Assembly: GCA_002687175.1 (NCBI GenBank)
Contig: NYZP01000034.1
Location: 27,951 to 91,950, forward strand
Length of the DNA: 64,000 bases
Direction of reading: 5' to 3'
Origin: Parcubacteria group bacterium
Lineage (GTDB): Bacteria > Patescibacteriota > Patescibacteriia > Buchananbacterales > UBA6539
Shown here: positions 9,359-64,000 of the stretch, one piece after another
Layout of the letters: every line of letters starts with the position of its first letter
How positions within the stretch are numbered: position 1 is the stretch's first letter
Made by a program: the position numbers and the translations under genes
Notes under the pieces: model-generated
Seen by the model: the letters and a program-made list of their open reading frames with translations, nothing else
Databases searched by the model: none
Told to the model about the DNA's origin: nothing

Positions 9359-9805
9359 ATGATTAAGTTTGAGGTTAATCAGCAGGCTGGAAAAAAAATT
9401 TCTTTGAAACTCTGGCAAAAATGGATCAGTAAAATTACTAAAACTTTAAAATTAAAGAATGATTTAGAAATTTCTATTGCGGTTGTCGGAGACCAGAGAA
9501 TTAAAAAATTAAACGCCACTTACCGGCAGAAAAATAAAGTAACCGATGTTTTGAGTTTTGGTGCTTTAACTAAAACCAGTAAATTTAATAAAGTTAATCA
9601 GCAATATTTAGGAGAAATTGTTATTGGCTATCAGCAGGCCGTAAGGCAATCTAATAAAATTGGTCATTCAGTTAATCAAGAATTTGAAAAATTATTAGTT
9701 CACGGGTTCTTGCATTTATTAGGCTATGATCACGAAAAAGATAATGAGGCTAAGACAATGGAAAAACTTGAACAAAAAATCATCAGTAAAAATATTAATA
9801 AGTAG
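9359..9805 (+). CDS. ybeY: Endoribonuclease YbeY (rRNA maturation factor)
   Basis: Carries the 'HGFLHLLGYDHEKD' H-x3-H-x5-H metal-binding motif at the expected size of about 150 aa. Confidence 0.8.
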   Translation: MIKFEVNQQAGKKISLKLWQKWISKITKTLKLKNDLEISIAVVGDQRIKKLNATYRQKNKVTDVLSFGALTKTSKFNKVNQQYLGEIVIGYQQAVRQSNKIGHSVNQEFEKLLVHGFLHLLGYDHEKDNEAKTMEKLEQKIISKNINK

Positions 9806-9895
9806 TAAAGTTGTATAAATTATTGGTTAATCTAAGTTGTCTACTGAAATTTAATATGTTAAAGTATTTAATATCATAGTTAATAGGTTATCACT

Positions 9896-11152
9896 ATGGC
9901 AGAAAAAGAAATTATCGTCGGCCTTGATATCGGCTCAACCGCCATTAGATTGGCCGTGGGTCAAAATGTCGGTGACGATGAAGATAAAATTCATATCATT
10001 GGTTCAGCCGAAGTTCCGGCTGAAGGCATTAGCAAAGGTATCATCAGTAGTATTGAGGATGCTGTTTCTTCAATTTCTGCTTGTTTGGAAAAAGCTGAAC
10101 GGATGGTTGGTGTACCATTACAAACTGCCTGGGTAGGAATTTCCGGTAGTCATATAATTTCTCAAGAAAGTCAGGGAGTGGTCGCGGTAGCCAGAAGTAA
10201 TGGCGAAATTTCGGAAGATGATATTGAACGTTCAATCGATGCCGCCCGTATTGTGGCGACACCACCAGATTATGAAATTTTACACGTCATCCCAAAAAGT
10301 TTTACCGTTGATGGTCAGATAGGCATCAAAGATCCTTTGGGGATGACCGGCGTACGCCTGGAAGTTGATACTCAAATTATTCAAGGTTTAAGTTCACAGA
10401 TTAAAAATTTAACTAAGGCTGTTTATCGACCGGGAATTAATATTGAAGATTTAGTGCTGTCAATTTTGGCAACATCCGAAGCGGTGTTAAGTAGTCGACA
10501 AAAAGAATTAGGAGTTGTCGTTATTGATGTTGGTGGTGCGACGACCAGCATGGCAGTATTTGAAGAAGGAGATATTTTACACACCGCCGTGTTGCCGGTA
10601 GGTTCTGATCATATTACTTCGGACATCGCCATTGGTTTACGTATTGCCATTGATACTGCTGAAAAGATTAAGTTGGAATACGGTTCAGCCACCACTGACA
10701 AAATTTCCAAAAAAGACGAGATTGATATTGGTGAATTGGAGGGTCGAGAAAGCAATTTTGTGTCGAAAAAGTATGTCGTCGAGATAACCGAGGCTAGGGT
10801 GGAGGAAATCCTTGATAAGGTTGACGCCGAGTTGAAGAAGATTGATAAAAGTGGTAAACTTCCAGCAGGCGTTATTTTAACTGGCGGTGGAGCAAAATTA
10901 AACGGTTTAGTCGATGCAACTAAGAAAAATTTGCGTTTGCCGGCTAATTTAGGCAAGACTTTTAACATCACCAGCGCTATTGATAAGATCAATGATCCAG
11001 CTTTTTCTACTGCTATTGGCTTAGTTATCTGGGGATCCCAGTTAGTGGGTCAAAAAAGAGGTGGTGGTCTTGGTAAGTTGTTAAATAATCTACCAAACCT
11101 TAAAGGCTTAACAAACCAAGGTAAAAAATGGTTTAAAAAGATAATTCCTTAA
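9896..11152 (+). CDS. ftsA: Cell division protein FtsA
   Basis: N-terminal 'IVGLDIGSTAIRLAVGQ' actin-fold phosphate-1 motif. Length 418 aa, immediately upstream of ftsZ. Confidence 0.85.
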   Translation: MAEKEIIVGLDIGSTAIRLAVGQNVGDDEDKIHIIGSAEVPAEGISKGIISSIEDAVSSISACLEKAERMVGVPLQTAWVGISGSHIISQESQGVVAVARSNGEISEDDIERSIDAARIVATPPDYEILHVIPKSFTVDGQIGIKDPLGMTGVRLEVDTQIIQGLSSQIKNLTKAVYRPGINIEDLVLSILATSEAVLSSRQKELGVVVIDVGGATTSMAVFEEGDILHTAVLPVGSDHITSDIAIGLRIAIDTAEKIKLEYGSATTDKISKKDEIDIGELEGRESNFVSKKYVVEITEARVEEILDKVDAELKKIDKSGKLPAGVILTGGGAKLNGLVDATKKNLRLPANLGKTFNITSAIDKINDPAFSTAIGLVIWGSQLVGQKRGGGLGKLLNNLPNLKGLTNQGKKWFKKIIP

Positions 11153-16267: not shown

Positions 16268-16270
16268 GTT
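16251..16270 (+). repeat. Direct repeat A (20/20 identical with 17998-18017): the 3' end of cobO, encoding '...VARKGIED*'
   Basis: 'aggggattgaggattaggtt' recurs 1.73 kb downstream. The second copy still encodes 'VVARKGIED*' but with synonymous codon changes (gcc agg -> gct aga). Confidence 0.8.
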
Positions 16271-16289
16271 GTAGGAGATTATTGTTGAT

Positions 16290-16540
16290 TGGCATTATCA
16301 TCAAGGTTGTCATAAATTTAGTGGCCCAGCCCTGAAGGGCAGGGCTATCGTGTAATTGTTATAAGCAGGTGACGAGAGTAGTCCCGCCGGAGGCGGGGCT
16401 TTATTGTATATCCCTGGACTAAAGGATTGGCCTGGGCGAAGGTGGGTACTGAGGTAGATCCATCCATCATTTTATGGGTACGGGGGGGTTGAGAAGGTTG
16501 GGGTAGGGTTTGAAATAGTAAGGGAGTTGATGTAATATAG
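16290..16540 (+). other. GC-rich, hairpin-dense noncoding segment at the left end of the insertion
   Basis: Hairpins 'gccc(a)gccct-UGAA-gggc(a)gggc' (16323-16344) and 'ccgcc-gga-ggcgg' (16385-16397), followed by a G-rich tract (16473-16512). Confidence 0.4.
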
Positions 16541-16544
16541 ATTT

Positions 16545-20416: not shown

Positions 20417-20518
20417 CATTCTTGCAAAATGACCATGCTTTTTAACACAAAAGGTCGTCAAAATTTTGACGACCTCTTTTTTTATTTATGCTATCTACTT
20501 ATCCCCATCACGGTTTAT

Positions 20519-20547: not shown

Positions 20548-20571
20548 CATATTACCTTAAAAAATAGTTTT

Positions 20572-20760
20572 AATTTCAGGGAAGTGAGGTGTGATTCCTC
20601 CGCTGACCCGCAACTGTGAAACCTCTATCTAAATTAGGTAAGGGGTTAAGCCAGACCACTGAAATTAGAGCTAACTATAATTCACTAAGCTCTTCGAGGT
20701 ACGAGAGTCGGTGATGTCTGATATGGACATTTTCGCTCTCCCTTGAACAGGGAGATTTTT
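20572..20760 (+). promoter_or_regulatory. Cobalamin (AdoCbl) riboswitch with an SD-sequestering terminator-like expression platform
   Basis: 'cagGGAAGtgaGGTGtgAtTCCtccGCTGaCCCGCAACTGTgAA' matches the conserved 5' core of the cobalamin riboswitch. A B12-box-like 'AAGCCAGACCACTG' lies at about 20647-20660. The 3' hairpin 'ctccc ttgaaca gggag' plus U-run (20735-20760) pairs with the 'agggag' SD 9 nt upstream of the ATG at 20766. Confidence 0.7.
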
Positions 20761-20765
20761 AATTT

Positions 20766-22643
20766 ATGAGAACAAAAAGAAATGGTATTCTACCATTCTT
20801 GACTCCTCGGCTCGGAAATAAAAAGTCTAAGACTTTTTATTTCTCTCGCTCTACGTCGTCAATCAAGAATTTTTGTTTAAGCTTAGCGGCCGTGGCAATG
20901 TTGCTGCAGCCGGTTTTAGCTGCCGCCGGAGTTTCTGAAGGCGTTAGCTATTTGGAGGCACAAACTCAAGATCCATGGATTACCATGGCTTTAGTTGCTG
21001 CCGGTGAGTCTGGTATTTCTACCAGTCACTTAACTTCAGTTTCCGGAACTACGGCGACTGACTATGCTAAAACTATTTTAGCTTTAGCCGCAGTTAACGA
21101 AAATCCCGCAACTTTTGGGGTGATTGATTTTGTGGCCGAACTAAAAAGCTATCACCAAGGCGGTCAAATGGGTGATGACAGTTTGATTAACGACGATGCT
21201 TGGTCAATTTTGGCCTTATCATCAGTCGGTGAATCTGGTACGGACGAAATGGAAGATGCCAAAGATTTTATTTTAGACAATCAAAATCCTGATGGTGGTT
21301 GGAGTTGGGGCGTTGGTGGTGCTAGTGATACCAATGACACCTCAGCCATGATCATGGCGTTAATTGAGTCTGGCGTTAGTGCAGGGGACTCAGTTATTAC
21401 TTCAGCTTTAAATTATTTAGAAGAAACCCAAAACGACGATGGTGGTTTTGGTTTTGACGGAGACTCTGATTCTGATTCTGGTTCAGACTCTTGGGTAATT
21501 GCCGCTTTAATTAAAGCCGGCATTAATCCAAACAGTTGGCAAGAGGAAGGTAACAGTCCAATTGACCATCTAGAAACTTTGCAGGATGATGATGGTGGTT
21601 TTTGGTGGGTGCCAGAAGGTGAATCAGAATTTAACAATAAAGCGATGACTGCTTTTGCGGTAGTTGCTTTAAGTGGCTCATCTTATCCGGTTGGTTACTT
21701 TGCCGGTGGTGACGCAGGTCCGCTAGCTGGAACTTTTAGCCTAAGAATTGAAGGGGCTAGTCGCACCATCTGTGACAGTTTTGTTGAAGCGGAAAACGGT
21801 TTAGATATTGTAGAAAACGGTTCAGAAATTTGTGATTACACTTATACTATTGAAGATACCGCTTTTGGTCCTTACTTGTCAGAAGTGGCTGGTGAAGCGG
21901 CTGAAGGTCTTGAAGGTTGGCTTTATCTGGTTGATTATGTTTCACCGCCAATTGGTGCCGCTGATTATGTTTTAGTAGAAGGCGAAGAAGTACTTTGGTA
22001 CTATGGTGAGTGGGGAATTAGTCCACTGCGATTAATTGTTTCCGATGATGAAGTAGATTCTGGAGACAGCACCACAATTACCGTTGAATATTATGAAGAT
22101 GGTTCTTGGCTACCGTTGGCCGGTGCTACTATTAAAGGTGCTGACCAAGACTACACTGCTAACGGTTCAGGACAATTAGCTCTAGGTTTAGATGATGGTT
22201 TTTACAACCTTTACGCCGAAGAAGATGGTTATGTCAGAAGTGCTAAAGTCGGAGTTACCTTTGGCGAGGGAGTTTCCGGAAATATTGGTTTAACCGTTGA
22301 AATTGATCAAGGCGGTGGCGGTGGTGGCGGTGATGGTATTGGTTTAGACATCGATACCAGTAGTATTGACTTTGGTATTTTAAGTCCTGGTGAAATTGCT
22401 GAAAGTATTGTTGGTATCATCGGTAATGTTGGTACTATTGATATCACAGTCAGCGCCTCGGTTTCTGGTGACACACTGTTTACTTCAAATTTAACAATTA
22501 ACGCCGTTGCTCCTAGTCAGTATTCACAAGACTTTAATGCCGGTGAAGGTGGTTCCGCTACTGTCGCCTTAAGTGTGCCAGAAAATTATCTTGGTTCAGG
22601 TGTTAAAAACGGTGAGCTGATTTTTTGGGCCACGCCTCAATAA
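20766..22643 (+). CDS. Secreted protein with prenyltransferase/terpene-cyclase-like (alpha/alpha toroid) repeats plus C-terminal beta-rich domains; first gene of the riboswitch-controlled locus
   Basis: Signal peptide 'LSLAAVAMLLQPVLAAAG'. Repeats 'NPDGGWSWGVGG..AMIMALIESG', 'NDDGGFGFDG..WVIAALIKAG', 'DDDGGFWWVPEG..AFAVVALSG' are of the QxxDGGW type. A poly-Gly tract is present. Confidence 0.55.
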   Translation: MRTKRNGILPFLTPRLGNKKSKTFYFSRSTSSIKNFCLSLAAVAMLLQPVLAAAGVSEGVSYLEAQTQDPWITMALVAAGESGISTSHLTSVSGTTATDYAKTILALAAVNENPATFGVIDFVAELKSYHQGGQMGDDSLINDDAWSILALSSVGESGTDEMEDAKDFILDNQNPDGGWSWGVGGASDTNDTSAMIMALIESGVSAGDSVITSALNYLEETQNDDGGFGFDGDSDSDSGSDSWVIAALIKAGINPNSWQEEGNSPIDHLETLQDDDGGFWWVPEGESEFNNKAMTAFAVVALSGSSYPVGYFAGGDAGPLAGTFSLRIEGASRTICDSFVEAENGLDIVENGSEICDYTYTIEDTAFGPYLSEVAGEAAEGLEGWLYLVDYVSPPIGAADYVLVEGEEVLWYYGEWGISPLRLIVSDDEVDSGDSTTITVEYYEDGSWLPLAGATIKGADQDYTANGSGQLALGLDDGFYNLYAEEDGYVRSAKVGVTFGEGVSGNIGLTVEIDQGGGGGGGDGIGLDIDTSSIDFGILSPGEIAESIVGIIGNVGTIDITVSASVSGDTLFTSNLTINAVAPSQYSQDFNAGEGGSATVALSVPENYLGSGVKNGELIFWATPQ

Positions 22644-34940: not shown

Positions 34941-36203
34941 ATGCCACACGACGTTACTTCCCTCAAATTAGCACCTCAAGGTAAAAAAAGAATTGAATGG
35001 GCAGCTCAAGACATGCCCGTCTTAGAAGAGATAAAAGATCGTTTTACAAAGTCAAAACCCTTAAAAGGTTTAAAAGTTTCTTGTTGCTTGCACGTTACTG
35101 CAGAAACTGCCAATTTAGTTCGGGTGCTAAAGGCCGGTGGCGCTAACGTACTTTTGTGTGCTTCCAATCCACTGTCCACCCAAGATGATGTGGCGGCAGC
35201 TTTAGTTAAAAGTTATGGGATTAAAGTTTATGCCAGAACTGGTGAGGATCGGACAACTTATTATAAACATTTAGAAGCGGCTCTGAAACATAAGCCGGAA
35301 GTAACCATGGATGATGGCGCTGATTTACTGTCATTACTTCACTCCAATAAATACCAAAAACAAGCCCTACAAGTCAAAGGTTCTATGGAAGAAACCACCA
35401 CTGGGGTTATTCGTCTGCAGGCTATGGAAAAAGCGGAAAAATTGATGGTCCCGATTATTGCAGTTAACGATGCTAAAACAAAAAATATGTTTGATAATCG
35501 GTATGGCACCGGACAATCAACTTTGGACGGAATAATCAGAGCAACCGATCTTTTACTGGCTGGTAAAACAGTAGTGGTGGTAGGTTATGGTTGGTGCGGT
35601 CGGGGATTTGCCATGCGCGCTCGAGGGATGGGGGCCAATGTTATTGTAACTGAAGTTGATCAGATTAAAGGCCTAGAAGCCGTAATGGACGGTTTTCGAG
35701 TGATGCCAATGAGTCGAGCCGCCAGCGTGGGAGATTTATTCTGCACCTTAACTGGCGATATTCATGTTTTAAGAAAAGAGCATTTTAAAAAAATGAAAGA
35801 CGGAGCGACTATTTGTAATTCAGGCCATTTTGATGTGGAAATCGATATTCCGGCACTTAAAAAATTGTCTCGTAAATTTAGAAAAAATGTTCGTGATTTT
35901 GTTGATGAATATACCTTGCCCGGCAACAGAAGAATTTATTTACTAGGCCAGGGGAGACTGATCAATTTAGCCGCGGCCGAAGGTCACCCAGCCTCGGTTA
36001 TGGATATGAGTTTTTCAACACAGGTTTTAGCGACCGAGTATGTCTTGAAAAATCACAAGAAATTATTAAACAAAGTTTATTACGTTCCAGAAAAAATTGA
36101 AAATTGGATTGCCAAAGCAAAGTTAAAGTCTTTTGGTATCAGTATTGATAAGTTAACCAAAGAGCAGGAGAAGTACTTAGCCAGCTGGGATATCGGAACA
36201 TAG
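34941..36203 (+). CDS. ahcY: S-adenosyl-L-homocysteine hydrolase
   Basis: NAD site '[28 protein letters not shown]'. 420 aa. Confidence 0.8.
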
Positions 36204-36277
36204 ATAATGAGACCCTGAAACAAGTTCAGGGTCTCATTAAGAGAAATCAACATAGCGCCCCTTTAACGGGGGCGCTT

Positions 36278-36796
36278 TTGCTTAAGCAAAATATGATAAA
36301 AGAACGAAAATTAAATAGATATTCAAACTATAATTATAATTTACCAGGTTATTATTTTATTACGATATGTGTCCAGGATCGTATAAAGTATTTTGGAAAA
36401 ATTGGTGATGGTCGGATGATTTTAAATAAATACGGAAAAATTGCAATTAAATATTTAATGAAAATCCCAAATTTTTATACGAACGTTGCCATTGATGAAT
36501 TTGTGATAATACCAAATCATATTCACATTATTATTGAAATTAAATCCGTAGGGACAGAACAATGTTCTGTCCCTACGGGGGTCAAAAATATTAATTATGG
36601 TTTATTGTCAAAGGTGGTTAAATCCTTTAAAGACGTTACAACCAAAGAAATTCACGGTGCATTGAATGATTACCATTTTCAATGGCAACGTTCCTTTTAT
36701 GATCATATTATTCGAGATGAAAATGGTTTATATAATATTAGGCAATATATAATTAATAATCCTTCGCAGTGGAACAGAGACAGAAATAATGTTTAA
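36278..36796 (+). mobile_element. IS200/IS605-like Y1 (HuH) transposase, REP-associated tyrosine transposase (RAYT)-like
   Basis: HuH 'NHIHIIIE' and catalytic-Tyr region 'RSFYDHIIRDE'. GC-rich hairpins lie upstream at 36212-36270. A 33-bp perfect palindrome sits inside the CDS at 36546-36578. Confidence 0.6.
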
Positions 36797-38171
36797 CACA
36801 AATTCCAAAATTTTTAGATTTTTTTTAATCTGTTTTATTATAGGTGTCGCTCTGGCATCATTTATTGCAATTAATGATTTTTGGTTGTTTTTGATGGGAT
36901 TATTGATAATGATTGGTTCAGTTTTTTTATGGTCAAAAAAATTTTGGCGCTTTATATTTATCGGCGTAATTATTATTGTTGTAGGAATTTGGCGTTATCA
37001 ATTTTCTGTACCAAAAATAGATGAAACAAAAATATCTTTTTATGTAGAGCAACAAGTTTTTTTTAAAGGTCTGGTAGTCAAAGAAGCTGATCAAAGAATT
37101 AACCATACAAAATTAACTGTTGAGGTTCAAGGATTAGAGAATAAAAAAGTTAACGGTAAAGTCTTAGTCGGTGTACCGTTATATCCTAAGTATCAATATG
37201 GTGACTTGGTTAGCATTAGCTGTAAATTGAGGTCGCCCGAGCCATTCAACGGTTTTGCTTATGATCGATATTTGGCAAAAAGTGATATCTACTCTCAATG
37301 TAGCTTCCCTCGAGTTAAATTAATTAGCCGTGGTAATGGAGACTATCTGTTAACTAAAATTTTTGAATTTAAAAATAAATTAAAATTAATCATTAATAAA
37401 AATTTACCAGAACCACAGGCCAGTTTATTTTCGGCTATTTCGTTAGGGTCACGGCGTGGTGTGCCTCAAGAATTGTCTGACAAATTCAGCATTACTGGCA
37501 CTAGCCATTTGATTGCTATTTCGGGAATGCATATTACCATTATCACAGTCATTCTGATGAAAATTGGTTTAGCGCTTTACCTGCCTCGCAAAAAAGTTTT
37601 CTGGTTAGTTACTTTAATGCTAATTGGCTATGTAACGATGATTGGTTTTCCAGCATCAGCGGTTCGCGCTTCCACCATGGGTTTTTTAGCAATGTGGGCT
37701 TTGTATCTCGGTCGACTTAATCAATCGGTGAATGCTTTAATCTTTGCCGCTTTTGTCATGATTTTGGTAAATCCTAAAATTTTGCGTGACGACATTGGTT
37801 TTCAGCTATCTTTTTGTGCGGTTATAGGTTTAATTTATATGTCACCAATGTTTGAGAAGTGGTTGGCAAAAATGCCGTCGTATTTGGGAATTAAAGAATC
37901 GTTACAAATGACCCTGGCGGCTCAGATTACCACTATGCCATTAATTATTTTTAATTTTGGTCGGTTATCTTTAATTGGTCTGTTAGCAAATCTTCTAGTT
38001 TTACCAGTTTTACCTTATTTAATGATCGTTGGTTTTAGCGCTTTATTATTAAGTCTTGTCTTTACAAGCTACAGTTTTTATTTATTTTGGCCAGTATTTT
38101 TTATTTTATCTTATCTAATTAAAGTAATAGAGTGGTTAAGTCTAGTACCGTTAGCGGCAATAAATTTTTGA
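36789..38171 (+). CDS. comEC: ComEC/Rec2 competence channel, membrane (competence) domain
   Basis: 'SHLIAISGMHITIIT' motif with multiple TM helices. Confidence 0.65.
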   Translation: MFNTNSKIFRFFLICFIIGVALASFIAINDFWLFLMGLLIMIGSVFLWSKKFWRFIFIGVIIIVVGIWRYQFSVPKIDETKISFYVEQQVFFKGLVVKEADQRINHTKLTVEVQGLENKKVNGKVLVGVPLYPKYQYGDLVSISCKLRSPEPFNGFAYDRYLAKSDIYSQCSFPRVKLISRGNGDYLLTKIFEFKNKLKLIINKNLPEPQASLFSAISLGSRRGVPQELSDKFSITGTSHLIAISGMHITIITVILMKIGLALYLPRKKVFWLVTLMLIGYVTMIGFPASAVRASTMGFLAMWALYLGRLNQSVNALIFAAFVMILVNPKILRDDIGFQLSFCAVIGLIYMSPMFEKWLAKMPSYLGIKESLQMTLAAQITTMPLIIFNFGRLSLIGLLANLLVLPVLPYLMIVGFSALLLSLVFTSYSFYLFWPVFFILSYLIKVIEWLSLVPLAAINF

Positions 38172-44689: not shown

Positions 44690-44756
44690 CCCCCCACTTT
44701 TTTAATAAAAGTGTGGGGGTTTATTTGACCACGTCGTTCGCGAACGACGTGGTTGA
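44690..44756 (+). terminator. Two consecutive strong hairpins (terminators) after the 44256..44636 gene
   Basis: 'cccccac(t)ttt..aaaagtgtggggg' and the 26-bp perfect palindrome 'ccacgtcgttcgcgaacgacgtgg'. Confidence 0.5.
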
Positions 44757-44786
44757 CAAATTTTTTATATTTGTTAGAATTTAATT

Positions 44787-44940
44787 TCAACGGCGGCCTG
44801 TTGTAGTCGAAAGCTAGTGAGAGAGGTCTCTCCTCCTGGGTTCTAAGAGATCTGATGCTTTCTGAGCGTCTTCTGGAATTACAGACGCTTACCGACAAGA
44901 CTCCAGGCCGCCGTTCCTTATTTGTTCTTTATTTTTTTTG
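44787..44940 (+). ncRNA. Candidate structured small RNA with its own promoter, a 12-bp terminal closing helix and a 3' U-tract
   Basis: Promoter TTGACA (44753-58), 16-nt spacer, TAGAAT (44775-80). 5' 'aacggcggcctg' (44789-800) pairs with 3' 'caggccgccgtt' (44904-15). Internal hairpins are present. U-run at 44932-39. No plausible ORF; the minus-strand track ORF 44620..44898 is likely spurious. Confidence 0.35.
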
Positions 44941-45041: not shown

Positions 45042-45111
45042 CGGCGTGTAGCTCAGGAAGAGCGCCTTGCTTGGGGCAAGGAGGTCGTAGGTGAAAATCC
45101 TGCCACGCCAA
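45042..45111 (+). tRNA. tRNA-like element, possibly tRNA-Pro(UGG), with an atypical T-loop and a short D-loop (could be a pseudo-tRNA or att remnant)
   Basis: Acceptor 'cggcgtg'/'cacgcca' (C1-A72 mismatch), U8 A9, D-stem gctc/gagc, anticodon stem ccttg/caagg, loop 'cuUGGgg' (T33, G37), variable 'aggtc', T-stem gtagg/cctgc. The T-loop is 'tgaaaat' rather than TTCRANY. Confidence 0.3.
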
Positions 45112-53010: not shown

Positions 53011-54201
53011 ATGGCAGATAAATTCGACAGAAGTAAACCTCATCTTAATGTTGGTACAATTGGTCACGTTGACCATGGTAAAACAACTTTAACGGCGGCA
53101 CTTTTAGCTTACCTAAACAAAAAGGGTAATAAAGCTAGTGACAAGTCAGTTGATCAGATTGACAGTGCACCAGAAGAAAAAGATAGAGGAATTACTATTG
53201 CCACCGCTCATGTTGAGTATGAGAGTGACTCTCGTCACTACGCTCACATTGACTGTCCAGGTCACGCTGATTACGTTAAAAACATGATTACCGGTGCTGC
53301 TCAAATGGATGGTGCTATTTTAGTTGTTGCCGCTACTGACGGCCCAATGCCTCAAACTCGTGAGCACATTTTGCTGGCCAGACAAGTTGGTGTACCAGCG
53401 ATGGTAGTATTTCTAAATAAAGTTGATCAAGTTAAAGATCCTGAGTTAATTGATCTAGTTGAGGAAGAAATTAGAGATCTTCTTAAAAAATATGAATTCC
53501 CAGGAGATGAAGTACCAATCATCAGAGGCTCAGCTTTAAAGGCATTAGAAAATCCTGACGATGCTGAAGCTATTAAACCAATGGAAGAGTTAGTTAAAGC
53601 AATTGATGAATATATTCCAGAACCTACTCGGGATGTTGATAAACCTTACTTAATGGCGATTGAAGATATTTTTTCAATTGAAGGTCGTGGTACCGTTGTT
53701 ACTGGTAAAATTGACCGTGGAATTATTAAGGTTAATGAAGAAGTTGAAATTGTCGGACTTCGGGACACTCAAAAAACAACAGTTACAGGTGTTGAGATGT
53801 TTAACAAGTCATTAGATGAAGGACAGGCTGGAGATAATGCTGGTATCCTGATTCGTGGAACCAAGAAGGATGAAGTCGAACGCGGACAAGTTTTGGCTAA
53901 ACCAGGTAGTATTACTCCACATACAGAATTTGAAGGTGAAACCTATATCTTAACCAAAGAAGAAGGTGGCCGTCACAGCCCATTCTTTAAAGGTTACAAG
54001 CCACAATTTTATATTGGTACGGCCGATGTAACCGGTGATGTTGAATTACCAGAAGGTGCTGAAATGGTTATGCCAGGTGACACTGTTAGCATTAAGATCA
54101 AATTAATTAAAGCAGTTGCCTTGGAAGAAAAACAACGATTTGCTATTCGAGAAGGTGGAAAAACTATAGGCGCTGGTGTGGTAACTAAAATTATTAAATA
54201 A
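53011..54201 (+). CDS. tuf: Elongation factor Tu
   Basis: '[18 protein letters not shown]' and 'DCPGHADY'. Confidence 0.95.
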
Positions 54202-54273
54202 AAAATTTGTAGCGATCCCGAGAAATCGGGGTCGCTACTTAGATTAAATATAAACTAATGTTCTTTCAACCAG

Positions 54274-54639
54274 ATGGCAATTAAGAAAATTCCGGTTTCC
54301 TCTCGTAAAGCTGATGAGGAATCCGAAGAAGGTAAACAAAAAATCAGAATTAAAATTAAAGCTTACGATCATAAAATAATTGATCAGTCTACCAAGACAA
54401 TCATGGAAACGGTTGAGCGTACCGGGGCTAAAGTTTTAGGTCCTGTACCTTTGCCAACCGAGAAGAAAAAATACACTGTTATGAAATCTTCGTTCGTTCA
54501 TAAAGATTCACGTGAACAGTACGAGATGCGTATCCATAAAAGACTACTAGACATTGTTAACCCGGGACCGAAGACCATTGATTCGTTACAGAATTTAAAC
54601 TTACCAGCTGGAGTAGACGTTGAAATTAAAATGGCCTGA
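54274..54639 (+). CDS. rpsJ: Ribosomal protein S10
   Basis: '[16 protein letters not shown]...' at the head of the S10 operon. Confidence 0.85.
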
Positions 54640-63963: not shown

Positions 63964-64000
63964 ATGTCTGAACTATCCCTACACAATTTAAAGGTAAATA
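63964..64000 (+). CDS. rplO: 3'-partial ORF, probably ribosomal protein L15 (no L30 gene between rpsE and this ORF)
   Basis: 'MSELSLHNLKVN' resembles L15 N-termini, and the position follows rpsE. Confidence 0.35.
   Translation, partial: MSELSLHNLKVN

What the first reader, a model, noticed from the sequence alone, without database searches (positions are those of the whole stretch)
36205..36796. RAYT/IS200-like HuH transposase with a 33-bp perfect palindrome embedded in its coding sequence
The HuH ('HIHIII') and catalytic-Tyr ('SFYDH') motifs identify a REP-associated tyrosine-transposase-like gene. It is preceded by GC-rich hairpins (36212-36270). Inside the ORF, 'ccgtagggacagaaca-a-tgttctgtccctacgg' (36546-36578) is a perfect 16/16 palindrome of exactly 11 codons. 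That is either an in-frame palindromic-element insertion in the very gene family that mobilises such elements, or a cis-acting recognition hairpin.
Basis: seen in the sequence. Interest (0 to 1): 0.5.

Follow-up and report, generated by a model that had tools for sequence, protein, structure and literature searches.

The report
REP palindrome inside its own transposase gene
A small bacterial gene for a REP-associated tyrosine transposase (RAYT) carries, in frame, a copy of the DNA hairpin this enzyme family recognises; this arrangement was described in 2018, and this is one more example of it, with the DNA rather than the encoded peptide being what is conserved.

Summary
The 33-nt perfect palindrome (36546-36578) is real and far beyond chance. 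It lies in a 167-aa HuH/Y1 gene (36293-36796) whose motifs (NHIH, WQ, YIINNP) match TnpA-REP/RAYT subclass 2.4 (Bertels group 4). Its 29-nt core, GTAG-GG...CC-CTAC, is a "double-foot" REP. Quentin et al. 2018 (PMC6006769) already reported REPs inserted in frame between the HuH and Tyr motifs as typical of this subclass, so the kind is known.

What I add:
- Of 158 homologous genes from many phyla, 140 carry a perfect stem of at least 8 bp at this spot (7 after codon shuffling). Most footed palindromes are exactly 28 or 29 nt.
- In 12 independent genes encoding VGTEQCSVPT (mean 56% protein identity), every paired codon is identical in all 12. Synonymous sites elsewhere vary freely.
- Amino-acid changes come as compensatory pairs. 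The peptide is a passenger in a low-confidence, unstructured surface loop.
- No other copy of this palindrome exists in the 64-kb window.

The upstream hairpins look like terminators, not REPs.

What the hairpin does (self-recognition site, autoregulation or retained REP copy) is inferred, not shown.

The parts
36293..36796 (+). RAYT / TnpA-REP gene of subclass 2.4 type, 167 aa. An alternative TTG start lies at 36278. The stop overlaps the comEC ATG (36789) by 8 nt.
   Evidence: ORF list. 100% match to P0001. Pfam PF01797 at 23.4 bits. NCBIfam NF047646 at 57 bits. AF2 model with pLDDT 85.9. Foldseek top hit 4er8_A. Only one copy in the window.
36518..36526 (+). HuH motif, H76-I77-H78, within PNHIHIII.
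   Evidence: Aligns with H59-M60-H61 of 4ER8 (residue roles from PMC3479197). H76 and H78 are nearly invariant in alignment A1.
36546..36578 (.). 33-nt perfect palindrome with 16-bp arms and one central nucleotide. The outer CC/GG pairs are specific to this lineage.
   Evidence: The flanking bases differ in the other VGTEQCSVPT genes.
36548..36576 (.). 29-nt family-conserved core, GTAG-GG-ACAGAACA-A-TGTTCTGT-CC-CTAC. This is a 'double-foot' REP with 14-bp arms and encodes V86-T95 (VGTEQCSVPT).
   Evidence: GTAG/CTAC feet and the GGG/CCC stem base match the subclass 2.4 REP description. The arms are identical in 12 of 12 independent genes, while the centre base and the first base after the foot vary. 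10 of 14 pairs show compensatory changes across 20 distinct sequences.
36683..36706 (+). WQRSFYDH, the region homologous to the GTAG-binding residues of E. coli TnpA-REP (W94, Q95, W99, E100, H101). It is not the catalytic Tyr motif.
   Evidence: hmmsearch alignment to 4er8_A. Residue roles from PMC6006769 section 12.
36746..36763 (+). YIINNP, the catalytic tyrosine motif. Y152 corresponds to Y115 of 4ER8 and N156 to N119.
   Evidence: Y152 is invariant in A1. It matches the subclass 2.4 signature YIxNNP.
36205..36239 (.). Hairpin with a 15-bp stem immediately after the ahcY stop codon. It is context, not a REP: no GTAG foot and unique in the window.
   Evidence: In the syntenic relative L172 this position holds a degenerate REP instead.
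36254..36276 (+). Intrinsic-terminator-like hairpin, a GC stem followed by TTTT, ending 17 nt before the RAYT ATG. It is context only.

Best explanation
The palindrome is the cognate REP of the enzyme the gene encodes. It is a GTAG...CTAC 'double-foot' hairpin of the type associated with subclass 2.4 (group 4) RAYTs. It is carried in frame in the DNA that codes for the loop between strand beta3 (which ends with the HuH motif) and helix alphaC.

What is conserved is the nucleic-acid palindrome: its two feet, its GGG/CCC base and its specific arms. The decapeptide VGTEQCSVPT is a by-product, tolerated in a low-confidence, unstructured loop of the model.

Because both strands read GTAG at their 5' end, either strand can fold into the same footed hairpin when single-stranded, for example during replication or transcription.

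Inferred, not shown: the RAYT binds, and perhaps nicks, this hairpin. That would keep one copy of its substrate physically linked to the enzyme gene, and might feed back on the gene's own expression.

In this Parcubacteria genome the gene is single-copy and sits among housekeeping genes (ahcY, then RAYT, then comEC). The internal REP is the only copy of its sequence in 64 kb.
For: Identity
- The motifs NHIH, WQ and YIINNP equal the subclass 2.4 signature, and that subclass is reported to have REPs inserted in frame between HuH and Y.
- The fold matches TnpA-REP, with 4er8_A as the top hit.

Generality
- 140 of 158 homologous genes have a perfect stem of at least 8 bp in this loop DNA, against 7 of 158 after codon shuffling and 9 of 158 in an equal-length upstream part of the gene.
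- 84 carry a GT[AG]-footed palindrome, and 74 of those are exactly 28 or 29 nt.
- Density is 2.8 per kb in the loop, 0.11 per kb in the rest of the gene and 0.06 per kb in the flanks.
- The reading frame that would create a TAG stop is never used.
- Anchoring on GTAG alone, 82 of 146 sites in loops start a palindrome with at least 12 of 14 pairs, against 38 of 1247 in the flanks.

Nucleotide-level constraint
- In 12 independent VGTEQCSVPT genes (49-82% protein identity, mean 56%), all 8 codons whose third base is paired are identical in 12 of 12.
- The centre base (CAA 8, CAG 4) and the first base past the foot (ACG 5, ACA 5, ACC 1, ACT 1) vary.
- None of 22 invariant-residue columns elsewhere uses a single codon.
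- Pairwise, the same codon is used in 528 of 528 comparisons inside the palindrome and in 49% outside.

Covariation
- Peptide variants are mirror-paired: VGAEQCSAPT, VGTGHCPVPT, VGTEYYSVPT, VGTAQCAVPT, VGTKHCFVPT, VETGLKPVST.
- 10 of 14 pairs show changes on both sides, with 99.6% of cells paired.

Co-diversification
- Arm distance tracks core-protein distance (Spearman r = 0.23; 0 of 999 permutations reach it).
- Where flanking REPs exist they are the same as, or close variants of, the internal one.

Passenger peptide
- Residues 84-103 of the model have no secondary structure, and mean pLDDT for residues 91-100 is 53.

Orthology
- The syntenic orthologue L172 (about 60% protein identity) keeps the REP at the same codon offset from the HuH motif.
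Against: - No binding or cleavage data exist for any subclass 2.4 enzyme. The E. coli enzyme needs a bulged, imperfect hairpin and loses binding when the bulge is repaired (PMC3479197). Here the hairpin is perfect.
- Close homologues without any palindrome exist (P0093/L176, 52% identity). About 18 of 158 genes lack a stem of at least 8 bp, so the element is dispensable for the protein.
- Loops with tandem partial copies (P0031, P0035, L015) look like local instability rather than a tuned site.
- Only 64 kb of the genome could be searched for other copies.
- The same REP class also sits in frame in an unrelated gene (queH in L167). This shows that simple insertion into coding DNA does happen.
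Confidence: 0.7

Rival explanations
1. Neutral passenger. A REP mobilised by the enzyme landed in the only permissive spot of its own gene, a surface loop, and is simply tolerated. It has no role for gene or host. This is the implicit reading in the 2018 paper.
For: [quoted passage not shown]
- Close relatives without a REP exist.
- Loop length and copy number vary widely.
- REPs of the same class lie in frame in queH of L167.
Against: - A neutral relic should decay. Instead, 28 paired nucleotides are identical in 12 lineages whose synonymous sites elsewhere are only 49% the same codon.
- The syntenic orthologue keeps the palindrome at the same codon.
- No donor copy exists in the 64-kb window, nor in the 10-kb flanks of most genes of this clade.
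- A 28- or 29-nt element is not a multiple of 3, so a plain insertion would shift the reading frame.
Confidence: 0.15
2. RNA-level element. The hairpin acts in the mRNA (-28 kcal/mol) to slow translation, set mRNA half-life or serve as an RNase site. This would keep RAYT (and downstream comEC) expression low, independently of recognition by the protein.
For: - The predicted RNA hairpin is strong.
- IS200 tnpA is known to be restrained by an mRNA hairpin (cited in PMC3733652).
- The RAYT is translationally coupled to comEC through an 8-nt overlap.
Against: - The strictly conserved GTAG/CTAC feet on both strands are the ssDNA recognition tetranucleotide of TnpA-REP. An RNA-only stem has no reason to keep them.
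- Mismatches in near-perfect copies show no G-U bias: 6 GT/TG, 4 AC/CA and 11 other.
- The specific arm sequence, not merely the pairing, is conserved.
- Identical copies occur in intergenic DNA in either context.
Confidence: 0.1
3. The conserved decapeptide VGTEQCSVPT is a functional protein motif, for example a Cys-containing ligand or an interaction loop, and the palindrome is incidental.
For: The peptide is at least 90% conserved among the 60 closest homologues.
Against: - The synonymous codons are fixed.
- Substitutions come as mirror-paired double changes that alter chemistry, such as E/S to G/P and T/V to A/A.
- Across the family the same DNA element is read in two frames and in two lengths, giving unrelated peptides: VG..PT, VG..[SP]LQ and xRG..APT.
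- The loop has low pLDDT.
Confidence: 0.03

Closest known systems
TnpA-REP / RAYT subclass 2.4 (Bertels group 4) with REPs inside the tnpA-REP gene (Quentin, Siguier, Chandler & Fichant 2018, BMC Genomics 19:475)
   Same: - It has the same motif signature: NH[IFV]H, WQ, YIxNNP.
[quoted passage not shown]
- The REP is of the 'double-foot' type, with 5' GT[AG]G, 3' C[TC]AC and three G-C pairs at the stem base.
- The gene is low-copy and scattered across phyla.
   Different: - The host here is a Parcubacteria (CPR) MAG, a group not named among the taxa listed for this subclass in the sections I read.
- No REPs flank the gene within 1 kb, and no copy of this REP is found in 64 kb.
- The paper treats the inserts as probably inconsequential, whereas the arms here are under nucleotide-level conservation.
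E. coli TnpA-REP (YafM) REPtron, PDB 4ER8 (Messing et al. 2012; Ton-Hoang et al. 2012)
   Same: - It shares the HuH/Y1 fold and is the Foldseek top hit.
- The HuH, catalytic Tyr and WQ..[WY][ED]H..R GTAG-binding residues align.
- The substrate is a GTAG-footed hairpin.
   Different: - Sequence identity is 19%.
- The E. coli REPs are extragenic, imperfect (a bulge is essential), have a single foot and are present in hundreds of copies flanking the gene.
- E. coli lacks the extended beta3-alphaC loop.
- H123 is replaced by W here.
IS200/IS605 TnpA (IS608, ISDra2)
   Same: It has the same Y1 HuH fold and also recognises ssDNA hairpins.
   Different: - The IS hairpins are subterminal to a mobile unit, and the Tyr motif is Y...Q.
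- The gene is multi-copy and mobile.
- Here the gene is single-copy, embedded in housekeeping operons and has no IS ends.
REP/RPE elements inserted in frame in protein-coding genes (Rickettsia palindromic elements; GTAG and CGTC REPs inside genes, Di Nocera et al. 2013, PMC3733652)
   Same: - A palindromic repeat is translated as a short extra peptide in a permissive region.
- The same thing is seen here in queH of L167.
   Different: - Those are sporadic, lineage-specific insertions in unrelated genes.
- Here the element occupies the same loop in most members of a whole enzyme subclass, and it is the enzyme's presumed own substrate.

Membership tests
HuH Y1 transposase superfamily (Pfam PF01797, Y1_Tnp) | The Pfam profile scores above its gathering threshold. 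| tested here: met
   23.4 bits against a cutoff of 23, E = 6.7e-05. This passes only just.
HuH Y1 transposase superfamily (Pfam PF01797, Y1_Tnp) | An HuH metal-binding motif and a single catalytic Tyr on the following helix. | tested here: met
   H76-I-H78 aligns with H59-M-H61, and Y152 with Y115 of 4ER8. Both are conserved in A1.
HuH Y1 transposase superfamily (Pfam PF01797, Y1_Tnp) | The Y1 HuH fold. | tested here: met
   AF2 model with pLDDT 85.9. Foldseek finds 4er8_A at E = 7.8e-06 and TM 0.60, followed by ISDra2 and IS608 TnpA.
REP-associated tyrosine transposase (NCBIfam NF047646, equivalog) | The score reaches the curated equivalog cutoff. | tested here: not met
   57.1 bits against a cutoff of 80. 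The gene is related to, but not an equivalog of, the E. coli-type enzyme.
TnpA-Y1 subclass 2.4 (Quentin 2018), equal to RAYT group 4 (Bertels 2017) | Motif signature NH[IFV]H / WQ / YIxNNP. | tested here: met
   NHIH, WQ and YIINNP are read in the translation and compared with Table 1 of PMC6006769. The authors' HMMs were not available.
TnpA-Y1 subclass 2.4 (Quentin 2018), equal to RAYT group 4 (Bertels 2017) | A variable insertion between beta3 and alphaC that contains REP sequence in frame. | tested here: met
   The model has no secondary structure at residues 84-103, between E76-83 and H104-124. The REP lies at 36548-36576.
TnpA-Y1 subclass 2.4 (Quentin 2018), equal to RAYT group 4 (Bertels 2017) | Canonical REPs within about 1 kb on either side of the gene (REPtron arrangement). 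| tested here: not met
   No GTAG-footed hairpin lies in the flanks, and the upstream hairpins lack the foot. The syntenic relative L172 has one degenerate copy upstream. The paper describes this as true of a 'large majority', so it is not obligatory.
REP (GTAG type, 'double foot') | A 5' GT[AG]G at the foot of a stem-loop, its reverse complement at the 3' end, and G-C pairs at the stem base. | tested here: met
   GTAG GGG ... CCC CTAC.
REP (GTAG type, 'double foot') | Repetitive: many dispersed, mostly extragenic copies in the genome. | tested here: not met
   There is one copy in 64 kb, and it is intragenic. The rest of the genome could not be searched. One unrelated GTAG...CTAC hairpin lies at 54209-54238.
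REP (GTAG type, 'double foot') | Bound and cleaved by the cognate RAYT as ssDNA. | not testable with these tools
   This needs biochemistry.

The most novel reading that the evidence does not exclude
The internal REP is a selected cis element, not a tolerated insertion. In subclass 2.4 RAYTs the enzyme gene and one copy of its substrate form a single heritable unit. In REP-poor, streamlined genomes such as this Parcubacteria the enzyme's own gene may be its only substrate. The hairpin could extrude on either strand during transcription or replication. The RAYT would then bind or nick it, giving negative autoregulation. Alternatively the internal copy is a retained 'seed' from which REP populations can be re-founded after horizontal transfer. 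The near-invariant 'protein motif' VGTEQCSVPT would then be a pure shadow of DNA-level selection.
Probability: 0.3. Interest if true: 0.55.

Novelty: new member of a known kind. Interest (0 to 1): 0.3.

Why it matters
For the scan, this is a correct call of an arrangement that has been in the literature since 2018, so it is not a discovery.

Three points are still useful:
- It extends intragenic-REP RAYTs to CPR/Patescibacteria. These genomes are tiny and here appear to hold no other copy of the REP. That makes them a clean system for asking what a domesticated RAYT does when it has no REP population to manage.
- The synonymous-site result (528 of 528 codon pairs identical inside the arms, against 49% outside) argues that the inserts are maintained, not merely tolerated. 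As far as I could find, nobody has published this.
- It is a caution for annotation. Near-invariant peptides such as VGTEQCSVPT, VGNGLKPFPT and VGARHAVPLQ in these 'transposases' are translated palindromes, not protein motifs. They will distort alignments and profile models.

Tried and rejected
- **Other copies of the arm or of GTAGGG...CCCTAC in the window:** none found. A 3-mismatch hit near 63982 is not a hairpin.
- **Upstream hairpins 36205-36276 as flanking REPs:** rejected. They have no GTAG foot, are unique in the window and look like terminators.
- **Rfam:** no family matches the palindrome region, even at E up to 1.
- **Peptide-motif reading:** rejected on codon usage, paired substitutions and multiple reading frames.
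- **G-U wobble bias, to separate an RNA role from a DNA role:** too few mismatches (21) and no bias, so inconclusive.
- **Genome and metagenome scans:** DNA of the VGTEQCSVPT clade had to be fetched protein by protein.
- **Pair counting on alignment A3:** this is partly circular, because most rows were chosen for being palindromic. I therefore rely on the shuffle control, the upstream-gene control and the GTAG-anchored control.
- **Search for an 'empty site':** P0093/L176 has a loop of similar length with no palindrome and no recognisable remnant. It shows the element is dispensable, but not where an insertion would have had its boundaries.
- **Viral contig scan for the 29-mer:** one intergenic hit in a GC-rich contig, uninformative about function.

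Full report
**1. The observation**

The sequence at 36546-36578 is CCGTAGGGACAGAACA-A-TGTTCTGTCCCTACGG. It is a perfect palindrome with 16-nt arms and 1 nt between them.

- It is the longest perfect hairpin in the 64-kb window.
- Twenty mononucleotide shuffles of the window gave no stem of 12 bp or more.
- As single-stranded DNA it folds at -17.5 kcal/mol (z = -8.1). As RNA it folds at -28.4 kcal/mol (z = -6.8).
- The arm occurs nowhere else in the window, even with mismatches allowed.

The palindrome lies inside ORF 36293-36796 (167 aa). That ORF is 100% identical to a database protein from a Parcubacteria MAG, which sources name 'transposase / REP element-mobilizing transposase RayT'. The MAG is GCA_002434675.1, and the same sequence is also on a TARA scaffold.

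**2. The gene**

- Pfam Y1_Tnp is only just met (23.4 bits, cutoff 23).
- NCBIfam REP_Tyr_transpos matches at E = 1.8e-15 but falls below its equivalog cutoff.
- An AlphaFold model built on 60 homologues has pLDDT 85.9. Its best PDB match is 4er8_A, E. coli TnpA-REP bound to a REP hairpin, followed by the ISDra2 and IS608 transposases.
- A profile alignment to 4ER8, read with the residue roles from Messing et al. 2012 (PMC3479197) and Quentin et al. 2018, places three features:
  - the HuH motif at H76-I-H78 (36518-36526);
  - the GTAG-binding segment at WQRSFYDH (36683-36706, aligning with W94, Q95, W99, E100, H101);
  - the catalytic tyrosine at Y152 in QYIINNP (36746-36763, aligning with Y115 and N119).

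**3. This arrangement is already described**

Quentin, Siguier, Chandler and Fichant (BMC Genomics 2018, PMC6006769) divide TnpA-Y1 proteins into subclasses.

- Subclass 2.4 (Bertels' RAYT group 4) has the motifs NH[IFV]H, WQ and YIxNNP. The window gene has NHIH, WQ and YIINNP.
[quoted passage not shown] - Subclass 2.4 REPs are either long hairpins with three G-C pairs at the stem base or 'double foot' REPs, with 5' GT[AG]G and 3' C[TC]AC.
- The core of our palindrome, GTAG-GGG...CCC-CTAC (36548-36576), fits that description exactly.

I found no later paper that examines these internal REPs.

**4. How general the arrangement is**

I fetched 160 related loci from genome and metagenome collections. 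With the window this gave 161 loci, and in 158 of them I could locate the stretch between the HuH and WQ motifs.

- The longest perfect stem in that stretch has median 13 bp. It is at least 8 bp in 140 of 158 genes.
- After codon shuffling the same measure is at least 8 bp in only 7 of 158 genes. In an equal-length upstream part of the same genes it is 9 of 158.
- 84 genes have a GT[AG]-footed palindrome that pairs perfectly from the foot. 74 of these are exactly 28 or 29 nt, with 14-bp arms.
- Density is 2.8 per kb in the loop, 0.11 per kb in the rest of the gene and 0.06 per kb in the flanks.
- Anchoring only on GTAG, 82 of 146 sites in loops start a 28- or 29-nt palindrome with at least 12 of 14 pairs, against 38 of 1247 in the flanks.
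- The foot is read as GTA-GGN in 68 genes and as xGT-AGG in 16. It is never read in the frame that would create a TAG stop.

Frame and length together explain the recurrent peptide families VG......PT, VG.....[SP]LQ and xRG....APT.

In about 25 loci, identical or near-identical palindromes also sit next to the gene. The internal element is therefore the same family as the flanking REPs.

**5. What is conserved is the DNA, not the peptide**

- VGTEQCSVPT is at least 90% conserved among the 60 closest homologues.
- I collected 12 independent genes with this peptide from different lineages (mean 56% protein identity).
- The eight codons whose third base is paired in the palindrome (V, G, T, E, C, S, V, P) use one single codon in all 12 genes.
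- The two codons whose third base is unpaired vary. These are Q, which holds the central base (CAA 8, CAG 4), and T, whose third base is the first past the foot (ACG 5, ACA 5, ACC 1, ACT 1).
- None of the 22 invariant-residue columns elsewhere in the gene uses a single codon.
- Over all 66 pairs, identical residues share the same codon in 528 of 528 cases inside the arms and in 49% of 4967 cases outside.
- Peptide variants are mirror-paired double changes that keep the pairing. T/V becomes A/A, E/S becomes G/P, A/A or K/F, Q/C becomes Y/Y, and G/P becomes E/S.
- On 20 distinct 29-mers, 10 of 14 pairs show changes on both sides and 99.6% of cells are paired. This count is partly circular, because most rows were picked as palindromes.
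- Arm sequence co-varies with core-protein distance (Spearman r = 0.23; 0 of 999 permutations reach it).
- In the model the encoded residues fall in a stretch with no secondary structure (residues 84-103), where mean pLDDT for residues 91-100 is 53.

**6. The local picture**

- The gene is single-copy in the window.
- It lies between ahcY (34941-36203) and a comEC-like gene (36789-38171), and its stop overlaps the comEC start by 8 nt.
- A relative with about 60% protein identity (L172) has the same order: PfkB, AhcY, RAYT, ComEC, metallo-beta-lactamase. It keeps the same REP at the same offset from the HuH motif. It also has a degenerate extra REP right after the ahcY stop.
- In the window that position holds a different, unique hairpin (36205-36239), followed by a terminator-like hairpin (36254-36276). 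Neither has a GTAG foot.
- In this clade, extra copies within 10 kb on either side are rare.

**7. How it most likely works**

*Shown:* the element is a GTAG double-foot REP of the type tied to this enzyme subclass. It is maintained at the nucleotide level, it co-diversifies with the enzyme, and its peptide product sits in a low-confidence, unstructured loop of the model.

*Inferred:*
- The enzyme recognises this hairpin as ssDNA through the conserved WQ..YDH..R segment.
- Because both strands carry a 5' GTAG, either strand presents the same footed hairpin when unwound.
- Keeping one copy inside the gene links enzyme and substrate, and may give feedback on expression.

*Evidence against:*
- No biochemistry exists for subclass 2.4.
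- The E. coli enzyme requires a bulged hairpin.
- Close homologues without the palindrome exist (P0093/L176).
- Some loops hold tandem partial copies.
- The same REP class is found in frame in queH of one genome (L167), so plain insertion into coding DNA does occur.

*Rivals:*
- A neutral passenger insertion is contradicted by the synonymous-site data.
- An RNA-only hairpin does not explain the conserved feet and arm sequence, and the mismatches show no G-U bias.
- A functional peptide motif is effectively excluded.

**8. Verdict**

Three corrections apply: the catalytic Tyr, the upstream hairpins, and a refutation criterion that is met literally without refuting.

The kind is known, so this is a new member, here in a CPR bacterium. 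Interest is modest. The open and testable part is whether the internal REP is a selected cis element, for which the synonymous-site pattern gives a first argument.

Noticed in passing
window 54209-54238: A second GTAG...CTAC 'double-foot' hairpin, GTAGCGATCCCGA-GAAA-TCGGGGTCGCTAC. It has a 13-bp stem with one T-G pair and a GNRA-type loop. It lies in the spacer between tuf (53011-54201) and rpsJ (54274-54639). Its stem is unrelated to the RAYT palindrome. It could be a second REP type or simply an mRNA 3' hairpin. It is absent from the 174 loci held at the time of the search.
   Followed up: partly
window 44728-44917: A perfect 26-nt palindrome, ACCACGTCGTTCGCGAACGACGTGGT (62% GC), directly abuts a promoter-like TTGACA-N17-TAGAAT. 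It looks like an operator. Downstream is a non-coding stretch of about 125 nt closed by a long-range stem (44792-44800 with 44908-44917), and then a tRNA at 45042-45111. No Rfam family reaches its threshold, and the only weak hit is RsaF at 25.9 bits against a gathering score of 60.
   Followed up: partly
window 16268-16544: An intergenic region with two adjacent GC-rich hairpins (around 16321-16400) in an AT-rich genome. Only sub-threshold Rfam hits were found. It may be a small RNA or a leader.
   Followed up: partly
window 20553-20717: An AdoCbl (B12) riboswitch above the Rfam gathering score (57.6 bits). Perfect palindromes lie on both sides, at 20452-20475 and 20815-20843.
   Followed up: no
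window 36254-36296 and 36789-36796: A terminator-like hairpin ends only 17 nt before the RAYT ATG, which leaves no room for a promoter. The RAYT stop overlaps the comEC start by 8 nt. RAYT and comEC expression would then depend on read-through from ahcY.
   Followed up: no
L168, L174, L167, L170, L172 and the window: RAYTs of this clade sit directly beside DNA-processing genes in unrelated contigs: uvrA twice (L168, L174), recJ and recG (L167), a NERD/UPF0102 nuclease (L170), and comEC (window, L172). This was not tested against chance.
   Followed up: no
L167:559-1137 (queH): In an Omnitrophota contig, queH lies 9 kb from the RAYT. Its product contains VGTAHCAVPT, encoded by the footed palindrome GTAGGGACAGCACACTGTGCTGTCCCTAC. 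A second peptide of the same VG......PT form, VGDGFKPSPT, also occurs in the protein, but I did not check its DNA.
   Followed up: partly
L106 and L112: Two homologues have a stop codon right after the REP-encoded segment (...VGAIH*...VENRHTCFLQCVNQ*). They are possibly pseudogenes created at the REP, or assembly errors at the palindrome.
   Followed up: no
L172:3011-3511: The syntenic orthologue of the window gene has a degraded C-terminus. It reads YIKYNYLKNSNS in place of YIxNNP..W, which loses the NP of the Tyr motif, yet it keeps a perfect internal REP.
   Followed up: no
L175:9954-9982 (IMG/VR contig): The identical 29-mer occurs once in a GC-rich viral or proviral contig, at the junction between two minus-strand ORFs and overlapping the first codons of one of them (9504-9968). 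No RAYT ORF is within about 500 bp.
   Followed up: partly
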